Shown: in pieces, positions 18,001 through 21,000 of the stretch | Layout: every line of letters begins with the position of its first letter | How positions within the stretch are numbered: position 1 is the stretch's first letter | NCBI RefSeq assembly: GCF_022846255.1 | Contig: NZ_AP025682.1 | Strand: one strand, 5' to 3' | Length of the DNA stretch: 64,000 bases | Origin: Escherichia coli | GTDB lineage: Bacteria; Pseudomonadota; Gammaproteobacteria; Enterobacterales; Enterobacteriaceae | Made by a program: the position numbers

Positions 18001-21000
18001 TTGTTCACTATGTGGATGCTGCGGGTTATTTTCCGCGTCAATGTTGAGACTGAGGCCCAGCAGCACGAGTCCACGCGAACCAACGGCGGTGCGCTAATCA
18101 GGACGATTAACATCCGAGTTGAGAATCCTAATTTGCATAATTTAGCCATTAAAGATGTGCCGATTCTCAATGGCGATAAAGTTATTTGCTCACGATTGAA
18201 ACGAGAAGAAACTCTAAAAGTGCCTTCGCCAGAAACCGTTATTCAACTGGGCGATTTGCTGCATCTGGTGGGGCAGCCTGCGGATTTACATAATGCGCAA
18301 CTGGTGATTGGTCAGGAGGTCGATACCTCGCTGTCTACGAAAGGCACTGATTTGCGCGTCGCGCGTGTGGTGGTCACCAATGAAAACGTGCTCGGTAAAC
18401 GTATTCGCGACCTGCACTTTAAAGAACGCTATGACGTTGTTATCTCGCGCCTGAACCGTGCTGGTGTTGAATTAGTTGCAAGTAGCGATATCAGCCTGCA
18501 GTTCGGCGATATCCTCAACCTGGTGGGGCGTCCGTCCGCAATTGATGCCGTTGCCAATGTGCTGGGGAATGCGCAGCAAAAACTGCAACAGGTTCAGATG
18601 CTGCCAGTGTTTATTGGTATCGGGCTTGGCGTATTGTTAGGTTCTATTCCCGTCTTTGTGCCTGGGTTCCCGGCGGCGTTGAAACTCGGGCTGGCGGGCG
18701 GTCCGCTGATTATGGCGTTGATCCTCGGGCGTATCGGCAGTATCGGCAAGCTGTACTGGTTTATGCCACCAAGCGCTAACCTGGCGCTACGCGAGTTAGG
18801 CATTGTGCTCTTTCTCTCGGTGGTTGGCCTGAAATCCGGCGGCGATTTTATCCATACACTGGTGGATGGCGAAGGGCTAAGCTGGATTGGTTATGGTGCC
18901 CTGATCACCGCCGTTCCGCTGATTACTGTTGGTATTCTGGCGCGGATGTTAGCCAAAATGAATTACCTGACCATGTGCGGGATGCTGGCAGGTTCCATGA
19001 CCGATCCTCCGGCGCTGGCGTTTGCTAATAATCTTCATCCAACCAGCGGTGCGGCGGCGCTCTCTTACGCCACTGTCTATCCGTTAGTGATGTTCCTGCG
19101 CATTATCACACCCCAATTACTGGCGGTGCTCTTCTGGAGTATCGGTTAACTCTTTTCCCGGTGGAGTCGCCGTAAATGGTACTCCGCCTGGTATTTCTGA
19201 ACATCATCGAGTCATTTACACACTCGCCATTCTGGTTATTACCTGTCCGTATTCTTCAGCACAGCTGACGGCGCATAACCAAATTTATGCTTAAAGGCTT
19301 TGCTGAAATGAAAGGAGTCGAAGAAGTTGAGCGTATCAGCGACTTCGCCAACCGAGTTCCCTTGTTGCTTTAATAGCGATAGCGCCGGATCCAGACGCGC
19401 ATCGAGGTAATATTCTTTCGGCGTCTTGCCGGTATAGCGTAAAAACAGACGACGCAACCAGGCCTCGCTACAGGGGATCGTGGCAGCCATATCAGCTACG
19501 CTCCAGCGTTGTTGTAGACTGGCATGTAAAGTGGCAATTAATTTTTCAATTTGCCGCCGTTGTGGATCTTTTTTACCGACTGTGTGCATAAGACAAATCC
19601 ACTGATAAATAATTTTCGTCAGAAAAGCGACTGCCAGATTATTTTTTATTGCTTCTGGTGAAGTAATTAACTCAGCAACTTCGGTGAGTTCCTGATTATA
19701 AACTTCGCCATTATAAATAACGCTTTGCTGACCGACGGGAATATCCATCATACTGGTGGGGGTAAATTCCATCCAGTACTGTTCCCAGACCAAACCTTCA
19801 CAGTGATAAGAGTGAATATCCATTGGCTTTAAAAATATAATACAGTTGCCATGCAGAGTTATTTGTTCGTCATTCTTTAAAAGAATTTTCCCACATCCTT
19901 GTACGGTATACACCGCAACCCATGAGTTGGCGATAAGCGGTTTCTTCTTGTCCCGCGGCCAGATCACCCGATAATGCTCGTCGGCGTAGGTATGCCAGAG
20001 CGATATCAGAGAAATTCCGCTGGAGATCACATTTTCGTTAATCAATAAGGGAATATTGTACGGGGTTTCGTTTTTTACATCCGAACTTTGCAATTTTCCA
20101 TTCATTTTAATATCCCTCCGGCGAATTATGCTCACAACCTGAACTTAACAGAAAACAATCCGTTCAGGGATATGACGTTTGTATTTTAAGAATCTGACTG
20201 CCTGACCCGACGCATTTTACCTCTCCCTATATTCATGCGTCCGGGACATAAACATAAATAAGGGCTATGAGATGAATTCGTTACAAATCTTGAGTTTTGT
20301 CGGTTTTACGCTGCTGGTGGCGGTCATCACCTGGTGGAAAGTCCGCAAAACAGATACTGGATCGCAACAAGGCTATTTTCTTGCCGGACGTTCACTAAAA
20401 GCGCCGGTTATTGCCGCTTCGTTAATGCTAACCAACCTTTCCACGGAACAACTGGTCGGCCTTTCCGGGCAGGCCTACAAAAGCGGCATGTCGGTGATGG
20501 GCTGGGAAGTCACCTCTGCAGTGACGCTGATCTTCCTCGCGCTAATCTTTTTACCGCGCTATCTGAAGCGCGGCATTGCCACCATCCCCGATTTTCTGGA
20601 GGAACGTTATGATAAAACGACGCGTATTATCATCGACTTCTGCTTCCTCATTGCCACCGGCGTCTGCTTTCTGCCGATTGTTCTCTACTCCGGCGCGTTG
20701 GCGCTCAACAGCCTGTTTCATGTGGGTGAGTCGCTACAACTTTCCGATGGTGCGGCTATCTGGTTACTGGTGATTTTGCTTGGTTTGGCGGGAATTTTGT
20801 ATGCGGTGATCGGCGGACTGCGCGCAATGGCAGTGGCGGACTCCATTAACGGTATTGGGCTGGTTATTGGCGGGTTGATGGTGCCGATATTTGGCCTGAT
20901 CGCGATGGGCAAGGGCAGCTTTATGCAGGGCATTGAGCAACTCACCACCGTTCACGCCGAGAAATTAAACTCAGTCGGCGGCCCGACCGATCCCTTGCCG

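What the first reader, a model, noticed from the sequence alone, without database searches (positions are those of the whole stretch)
19150..19238. yidE and yidL separated by only 89 bp: glvCBG-yidP segment of K-12 not present
From memory, K-12 has yidP and the glv PTS/phospho-alpha-glucosidase genes between yidE and yidL. Here the two genes are convergent and nearly abutting, indicating a different configuration of this variable locus.
Basis: established knowledge. Interest (0 to 1): 0.3.

Follow-up and report, generated by a model that had tools for sequence, protein, structure and literature searches.

The report
Old glv operon deletion, B2-type E. coli
This E. coli lacks the 3.9-kb sugar-uptake (glv) gene cluster that K-12 carries between yidE and yidL; it is an old deletion, already known, shared by about a fifth of sequenced E. 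coli (the B2 lineage, e.g. strain CFT073), so the finding is real but ordinary.

Summary
yidE (17488-19149, +) and yidL (19239-20105, -) are convergent and 89 bp apart. K-12 MG1655 has yidP-glvC-glvB-glvG' (3,435 bp) between the same two stop codons. Strains with intact genes have 3,943 bp there.

The 89-bp spacer is a scar. It is the decayed 3' end of yidP: 44/46 nt match K-12 yidP (E=2e-17), then a 10-bp gap, and the YidP C-terminus can still be read in translation. So this lineage lost about 3.85 kb; K-12 did not gain it.

yidE-yidP-glvCB-glvA synteny is widespread in Enterobacteriaceae. That supports the full locus as the ancestral state.

The same junction occurs in 1,137 of 5,426 complete E. 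coli genomes. The glv segment occurs in 4,282 others, so the two states are complementary. The spacer is identical in CFT073 (phylogroup B2), which is 98.7-99.1% identical to the window over 34 kb. Touchon et al. 2009 already list glvC as specifically absent in B2.

The identical scar is also present in E. whittamii and in two other Escherichia species representatives. The deletion is therefore old and crosses species boundaries.

Verdict: already known, low interest. Two minor open points remain: a conserved hairpin kept just after yidE, and the mosaic ancestry of yidE.

The parts
17488..19149 (+). yidE (putative AspT/YidE/YbjL-family transporter), intact, 553 aa
   Evidence: NCBIfam NF003007, 986 bits. 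RefSeq annotation of the 99.9%-identical strain 382634_2f and of CFT073.
19150..19238 (.). 89-bp yidE-yidL intergenic spacer, the reported feature
   Evidence: Sequence read. Identical 89 bp in CFT073. Same structure in E. coli DP033, E. whittamii, Escherichia sp. E1V33 and strain E69.
19146..19228 (-). Relic of the 3' end of yidP (last ~31 codons), frameshifted by an internal 10-bp deletion after 19193, with no start codon
   Evidence: Spacer nt 1-46 match the K-12 yidP 3' end at 95.7%, E=1.8e-17, and nt 44-57 are identical after a 10-bp gap. The translation reads ...YQAEYHLRRLHREKS* and NGECVNDSMMFRN, against YidP ...YQVEYHLRRLHPEKS* and SGEFLNYSVMFRN. tblastn places YidP residues 220-238 at 19205-19149.
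19157..19191 (+). Stem-loop directly after the yidE stop (11 bp plus 2 outer pairs), followed by a weak U-rich stretch. Candidate yidE 3' hairpin or terminator, retained from inside the yidP 3' coding end.
   Evidence: RNA fold of 19140-19245: -26.1 kcal/mol, z=-2.0. In 44 Enterobacteriaceae sequences 75% of cells pair, against 24-45% for slid controls, and one pair covaries (CG/UG/GC/UA). The consensus scan does not call it a terminator.
19229..19244 (.). Deletion junction. Homology to yidP ends on the left and homology to yidL resumes on the right. It includes the new yidL stop at 19239-19241.
   Evidence: blastn breakpoints against K-12: 19239 and 19245. Alignments. The exact nucleotide cannot be fixed because both candidate source segments are about 60% similar to this stretch.
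19239..20105 (-). yidL (AraC-family regulator), 288 aa. The C-terminal tail is 9 aa shorter than in K-12 (...KNTDR* versus ...KNTDQHPTDASPHN*).
   Evidence: AraC-family HTH hits reach the C-terminus. RefSeq annotates 867 bp in strain 382634_2f, DP033 and CFT073 against 894 bp in K-12. Tails compared.

Best explanation
The 89-bp gap is the scar of a single, old deletion of about 3.85 kb. It removed most of the GntR-type regulator gene yidP, the alpha-glucoside PTS IICB gene (glvC/glvB, fused in intact strains), the 6-phospho-alpha-glucosidase gene (glvA/glvG), and the last ~9 codons of yidL. What remains is the last ~31 codons of yidP, now frameshifted and decaying. That relic contains a hairpin sitting directly after the yidE stop. 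The window carries this scar because it belongs to the CFT073-like (phylogroup B2) lineage of E. coli, where this is the normal arrangement.

Shown: the gene content, the relic, the shared junction, the population frequency and the identity to CFT073.

Inferred: the strain cannot take up or hydrolyse alpha-glucosides through this system; yidE and yidL transcripts now end within the same 89 bp; and the proximal part of the relic may have been kept because its hairpin serves as the yidE 3' end.
For: - K-12 has 3,435 bp with yidP-glvC-glvB-glvG' between the same two stops. Strain PKF4 has 3,943 bp with intact genes. These are named alpha-glucoside-specific PTS IIBC (TIGR02005, 959 bits) and GntR regulator by NCBIfam, and 6-phospho-alpha-glucosidase by RefSeq.
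- The spacer matches the yidP 3' end at E=2e-17 and still translates to the YidP C-terminus.
- yidP lies directly next to the yidE stop, followed by glvCB-glvA, in most of the 80 Enterobacteriaceae loci. In several of them (Citrobacter braakii, Klebsiella oxytoca, Kluyvera, Pseudocitrobacter) yidL-yidK follow as well. The yidP end is therefore genuine yidP sequence, and the full locus is ancestral.
- The same 10-bp internal gap and the same junction are found in E. coli DP033 and 382634_2f, in E. whittamii, in Escherichia sp. E1V33 and in strain E69. This points to one event.
- 1,137 of 5,426 complete genomes have the contiguous junction and 4,282 of 5,426 have the segment. The segment is never on a plasmid.
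- In CFT073, yidL and yidE are 89 bp apart, the spacer is identical, and the window is 98.7-99.1% identical over 34 kb.
- Touchon et al. 2009, Table 5, lists glvC among functions specifically absent in B2 (PMC2617782).
Against: - The exact breakpoints cannot be placed. The distal ~22 nt of the relic are only ~60% identical to intact yidP, far more diverged than the proximal 46 nt (96%), which a simple neutral relic does not predict.
- Phylogroup B2 membership is inferred from near-identity to CFT073 and the presence of the frz island. The Clermont markers lie outside the window.
- Direct yidE-yidL adjacency also occurs in some Citrobacter, Salmonella arizonae, Trabulsiella and Pluralibacter, with short unrelated spacers and no yidP relic. 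Polarity outside Escherichia is therefore not settled.
- No canonical terminator was found in the spacer.
Confidence: 0.9

Rival explanations
1. The empty site is ancestral, and K-12-like strains gained yidP-glvCBG as an inserted island between yidE and yidL.
For: Several genera have a clean yidE-yidL junction with short hairpin-type spacers and no relic. The downstream side of yidE is clearly a variable cassette site, with all four combinations of the glv and yidLKJ modules occurring.
Against: The window's spacer contains 83 nt of recognisable yidP 3' coding sequence with a frameshifting 10-bp gap. An insertion cannot leave the end of the inserted gene in the empty allele. yidP abuts yidE in most Enterobacteriaceae sampled, including E. 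albertii. No mobility genes or repeats flank the segment in K-12 or PKF4.
Confidence: 0.04
2. A recent, strain-specific deletion or an assembly artefact in this particular genome.
For: The same window does carry one apparently private lesion, a 59-bp deletion in yidJ, so strain-specific deletions do occur here.
Against: The identical junction is present in 1,137 independently completed genomes, in CFT073 and in three other Escherichia species representatives.
Confidence: 0.01
3. The deletion was fixed in the common ancestor of E. coli and the cryptic Escherichia clades, and non-B2 E. coli later re-acquired yidP-glv by homologous recombination from a glv-bearing relative. The window's state still comes from the same deletion, but the K-12 state would be the derived one within E. 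coli.
For: All three non-coli Escherichia representatives other than E. albertii carry the scar. B2 is placed basally in E. coli (PMC2617782 abstract). yidE is unusually diverged between the two E. coli haplotypes: 93.4% over the gene and 87% at 18009-18309, against 98.9% in ibpAB. In that block K-12 is equally distant (84-87%) from every sampled Escherichia, while the window is 95% identical to E. whittamii and E69.
Against: K-12 yidE shows no clear affinity to E. albertii, the only glv-bearing outgroup sampled. yidL and yidK trees follow species. Only one genome per non-coli species was examined. Incomplete lineage sorting, or transfer of the deletion allele between species, explains the same pattern.
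Confidence: 0.15

Closest known systems
E. coli CFT073 (phylogroup B2) yidE-yidL junction, NC_004431.1 4365391-4368008
   Same: Same gene order (ibpAB-yidE | yidL-yidK-yidJ-yidH, with no yidI and no tisB/istR). Same 89-bp spacer, base for base. 98.7-99.1% identity over 34 kb.
   Different: The window also has a 59-bp frameshifting deletion in yidJ. It lacks the 1.4-kb DUF6708 gene insertion that CFT073 has between ilvN and uhpA.
'Genes specifically absent in group B2 strains' (Touchon et al. 2009, PLoS Genet, PMC2617782, Table 5: glvC)
   Same: The paper reports the same absence at gene-content level.
   Different: As far as the text I read shows, the paper lists gene absence only.
K-12 MG1655 glvCBG-yidP locus, and the intact alpha-glucoside PTS / 6-phospho-alpha-glucosidase operon (Klebsiella aglA-aglB, B. 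subtilis glvA-glvC homologues)
   Same: Same chromosomal site. The flanks are 95-97.5% identical. The spacer derives from this locus's yidP.
   Different: The genes are absent here. K-12 itself holds a degraded copy: glvG is a pseudogene, the segment is ~0.5 kb shorter, and IICB is split into glvC and glvB. K-12 homologues are described as cryptic or truncated in PMC5309279. Intact copies occur in O157:H7 and PKF4.

Membership tests
B2/CFT073-type yidE-yidL deletion haplotype of E. coli | yidE and yidL convergent, 89-bp spacer identical or near-identical to CFT073 | tested here: met
   Exact 89-bp match in CFT073. Annotated coordinates give an 89-bp gap.
B2/CFT073-type yidE-yidL deletion haplotype of E. 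coli | No yidP, glvC/B or glvA/G gene at the locus or nearby | tested here: met
   tblastn of YidP, GlvCB and GlvA against the whole window finds only the 19-residue YidP tail at 19205-19149. The rest of the source genome could not be searched.
B2/CFT073-type yidE-yidL deletion haplotype of E. coli | yidP 3' relic with the 10-bp internal gap and the same junction sequence | tested here: met
   Alignment with 382634_2f, DP033, E. whittamii, E1V33 and E69.
E. coli phylogroup B2 | Clermont markers (chuA+, yjaA+, arpA-, TspE4.C2 +/-) or whole-genome phylogeny | not testable with these tools
   The markers lie outside the 64-kb window. Indirect support: 98.7-99.1% identity to CFT073, and the frz island between yicH and yicI.
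Rho-independent (intrinsic) terminator, for the hairpin at 19157-19191 | GC-rich stem with a short loop, followed directly by a run of U | tested here: not met
   The consensus scan finds none in 18900-19500. The hairpin exists, but its tail UGGUAUUUCUG is only weakly U-rich, and its inner loop and bulge fall outside the scan's rules.
Conserved structured RNA element | Base pairs maintained by compensatory changes across species | tested here: inconclusive
   75% of cells are paired against 24-45% in slid controls. Only 1 of 13 pairs shows real covariation, and the region is also yidP coding sequence. No Rfam family matched: the best hit is SNORA50 at E=0.77, which is chance.
Mobile-element-mediated rearrangement | IS element, transposase or flanking repeats at the junction | tested here: not met
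   No such ORF or sequence in 19150-19238. IS91 and IS200/IS605-TnpB rearrangements of this locus exist, but in other strains.

The most novel reading that the evidence does not exclude
The scar is a trans-species allele. One deletion, older than E. coli itself, now segregates within E. coli (B2 versus the rest) and is present in E. whittamii and two other Escherichia species representatives, while E. albertii and most E. coli keep the operon. That implies one of three histories: very long-lived polymorphism, inter-species transfer of a loss allele, or re-acquisition of the operon by non-B2 E. coli. The mosaic, deeply split yidE gene would mark the recombination edges. Separately, the proximal yidP relic may have survived because it embeds a conserved yidE 3' hairpin.
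Probability: 0.3. Interest if true: 0.3.

Novelty: already known. Interest (0 to 1): 0.1.

Why it matters
It matters little beyond bookkeeping. The finding marks the source strain as CFT073-like (B2/ExPEC-type), and it explains why this strain lacks an alpha-glucoside PTS that other E. coli retain, either intact or degraded. It sets the polarity (loss, with a readable yidP relic). It shows that the same scar exists in other Escherichia species. It hints that a hairpin embedded in the end of yidP serves yidE. Together these make the locus a compact, easily typed marker for studying old polymorphism and recombination across Escherichia.

Tried and rejected
- **Known RNA families:** the Rfam scan of 18800-19600 gave only a chance SNORA50 hit at E=0.77.
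- **Promoters and terminators:** the consensus scan of 18900-19500 found none. The minus-strand fold is not better than shuffles (z=-0.9).
- **Exact breakpoints:** I tried to fix them by pairwise and multiple alignment. The 19207-19244 stretch aligns about equally (~60%) to the yidP segment and to the K-12 yidL tail, so I report only a 16-nt junction interval.
- **Donor of the K-12 haplotype:** I tested whether K-12's yidE looks imported from an E. albertii-like donor and found no clear signal.
- **Monophyly of deletion haplotypes:** I tested whether they cluster together in flanking gene trees. They do not; the trees follow species, with local mosaic blocks.
- **Hairpin covariation:** support is weak (one covarying pair) and is confounded by yidP coding.
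- **Insertion-in-K-12 and artefact readings:** both considered and rejected (see the rival explanations).

Full report
**Observation.**
Reading 18900-19500 and the ORF list shows a 561-codon ORF ending with TAA at 19147-19149 on the + strand. A minus-strand ORF has its stop (TTA on the + strand) at 19239-19241.

NCBIfam identifies the first as YidE (NF003007, 986 bits, cutoff 449) and the second as an AraC-family regulator. ibpA and ibpB lie upstream, and the YidK symporter and YidJ sulfatase lie downstream. RefSeq annotation of a 99.9%-identical genome gives yidE as 17488-19149 and yidL as 19239-20105 in window coordinates.

**Comparison with K-12.**
MG1655 has, between the same two genes, yidP, glvC, glvB and the glvG pseudogene. 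That is 3,435 bp between the stops, and the yidE/yidP and yidL/glvG stop codons each overlap by 4 bp.

Other strains (PKF4, O157:H7) have an intact version of 3,943 bp. It encodes:
- a GntR regulator;
- a 538-aa alpha-glucoside-specific PTS IIBC (TIGR02005, 959 bits);
- a 440-aa 6-phospho-alpha-glucosidase (RefSeq annotation).

K-12's copy is itself degraded. K-12-type genomes cover only 87% of the intact segment. The K-12 homologues are described as cryptic or truncated in PMC5309279.

**What the 89 bp are.**
- blastn of the window against K-12 carries the left-hand homology through the yidE stop into the spacer.
- The first 46 nt of the spacer are 95.7% identical to the 3' end of K-12 yidP (E=1.8e-17).
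- After a 10-bp gap, 14 more nt are identical.
- Read on the minus strand, the spacer translates to ...YQAEYHLRRLHREKS*, against YidP ...YQVEYHLRRLHPEKS*.
- In the shifted frame it reads NGECVNDSMMFRN, against SGEFLNYSVMFRN.

The spacer is therefore a frameshifted relic of the last ~31 codons of yidP (19146-19228). Homology to yidL resumes at about 19245. YidL ends ...KNTDR* here and ...KNTDQHPTDASPHN* in K-12. The junction lies in 19229-19244 and cannot be fixed more precisely.

**Polarity.**
I examined 80 loci from different Enterobacteriaceae species, found with YidE and annotated by tblastn. In most of them yidP sits directly against the yidE stop, followed by glvCB-glvA. In Citrobacter braakii, Klebsiella oxytoca, Kluyvera, Pseudocitrobacter and others, yidL-yidK follow, exactly as in K-12. 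The yidP 3' end is thus genuine, conserved yidP sequence. Finding it in the 'empty' allele means this allele arose by deletion of about 3.85 kb.

Direct yidE-yidL adjacency also exists in C. youngae, C. werkmanii, C. sedlakii, S. enterica arizonae, Trabulsiella and Pluralibacter. Their spacers are short and unrelated and carry no relic. They are independent cases or much older ones.

**Distribution.**
- A 1.1-kb query across the junction is contiguous in 1,137 of 5,426 complete E. coli genomes (485 at >=99% identity, 654 at 95-99%). In most of the rest it splits into a yidE/yidP place and a yidL place.
- The yidP-glv segment is found in 4,282 of 5,426 genomes, never on plasmids.
- The two counts sum to 5,419, so the states are complementary.
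- The leftovers include IS-mediated rearrangements: IS91 in ETEC4073 and IS200/IS605-TnpB in B25FEP.
- CFT073, the reference B2 uropathogen, has yidL and yidE 89 bp apart. Its spacer is identical, and the window is 98.7-99.1% identical to it over 34 kb.
- Touchon et al. 2009 list glvC among functions specifically absent in group B2 (PMC2617782, Table 5).

The finding is therefore the known B2 configuration.

**Age.**
The same relic, the same 10-bp gap and the same junction occur in the GTDB species representatives labelled E. whittamii, Escherichia sp. E1V33 and 'E. coli E69'. E. albertii has yidP. Gene trees of ibpAB, yidE, yidL and yidK group sequences by species, not by haplotype.

yidE, however, is unusually split within E. 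coli:
- the window is 93.4% identical to K-12 over yidE, against 98.9% in ibpAB;
- identity falls to 87% at 18009-18309;
- in that block the window is 95% identical to E. whittamii and E69, while K-12 is 84-87% from everything sampled.

A single old deletion is well supported. Three histories could explain its present distribution: long-lived polymorphism, transfer of the loss allele between species, or re-acquisition of the operon by non-B2 E. coli. I could not separate them. No E. albertii-like donor signal was seen.

**Function of what is left.**
No promoter-like or terminator-like consensus site is found, and no Rfam family matches. The + strand folds into a hairpin at 19157-19191 directly after the yidE stop (-26.1 kcal/mol for the 106-nt stretch, z=-2.0).

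The same hairpin lies inside the yidP 3' coding end in glv-bearing genomes. Across 44 sequences, 75% of cells pair, against 24-45% for slid controls. One pair covaries (CG 13, UG 11, GC 6, UA 6), coupling a Glu/Asp third codon position to a Leu/Val/Ile first position. This is a hint, not proof, that the hairpin is a yidE 3' element. It could explain why the proximal relic is 96% conserved while the distal 22 nt are only ~60% identical.

Loss of alpha-glucoside uptake and hydrolysis through this system is inferred from gene content only.

**Verdict.**
The feature is a known, lineage-typical deletion (already known; interest about 0.1). The most novel reading still open is the trans-species history of the scar, together with the embedded hairpin (probability about 0.3, interest if true about 0.3).

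**Context noticed along the way.**
Relative to K-12 the window also shows the following:
- a 59-bp frameshifting deletion in yidJ;
- no yidI;
- no tisB/istR;
- an 840-bp toxin-antitoxin-like insert between nepI and yicN;
- a different selC-adjacent segment;
- the 7.25-kb frz operon between yicI and yicH.

Noticed in passing
window 22149-22156 (yidJ, 21984-23418): A 59-bp deletion between two 8-bp direct repeats (CGCGCCGG) frameshifts yidJ into ORFs 21984-22190 and 22078-23418. CFT073 and K-12 have the full sequence. All 12 best megablast hits listed, out of 5,114 genomes with a match, span 360 bp in two pieces, so none of those has the deletion. It is private to this strain or a sequencing error.
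   Followed up: partly
window 23419-23466: yidI is missing. 48 bp stand where K-12 has 592 bp between yidJ and yidH. It is also missing in CFT073, 382634_2f and DP033, but present in E. whittamii, E1V33 and E69. This is a second, younger deletion in the same neighbourhood.
   Followed up: partly
window 26030-26186: The tisB/istR-1 toxin-antitoxin locus of K-12 (~650-690 bp between ysdE/emrD and ivbL) is absent. There is no TisB hit by tblastn. CFT073 is like the window.
   Followed up: partly
window 37376-38215: An 840-bp insert relative to K-12 between nepI and yicN holds two small overlapping minus-strand ORFs. One (37416-37739) resembles MqsA/NadS-type HTH antitoxins, so this is probably a type II toxin-antitoxin pair.
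   Followed up: partly
window 41831-44119: The segment next to selC differs from K-12, with the setC/yicT region replaced. A 388-aa minus-strand ORF (43045-44211) has no NCBIfam match.
   Followed up: no
window 48256-55509: A 7.25-kb island sits between yicI and yicH. It encodes a PRD/BglG-type regulator, fructose-type PTS IIA, IIB and IIC, two class II ketose-bisphosphate aldolases, a ROK kinase and a lyxose/mannose isomerase-like protein. This is the ExPEC-associated frz operon (GR 27 yicH..yicI, 7,227 bp, in PMC12928451). The strain has lost one sugar PTS (glv) and carries another within the same 64 kb.
   Followed up: partly
window 18009-18309 (inside yidE): A 300-bp block is only 87% identical to K-12 but 95% identical to E. 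whittamii and strain E69. The neighbouring blocks are 95-96% identical to K-12. This is a mosaic or recombinant structure of yidE next to the indel.
   Followed up: partly
L004 (ETEC4073) and L005 (B25FEP), same locus in other E. coli: Other rearrangements occur at this site. An IS91 element replaces yidR...glvC in ETEC4073. An IS200/IS605 tnpA plus TnpB replaces yidL-yidK and most of yidJ in B25FEP.
   Followed up: no
L079 and L083 (Superficieibacter), L032 (Citrobacter sp. 18056): In the two Superficieibacter loci a second, diverged yidP-glvCB-glvA cluster (YidP ~56% identical) lies in tandem after the first. In L032 only a second, diverged yidP copy (54% identical) sits between yidP and glvCB.
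   Followed up: no
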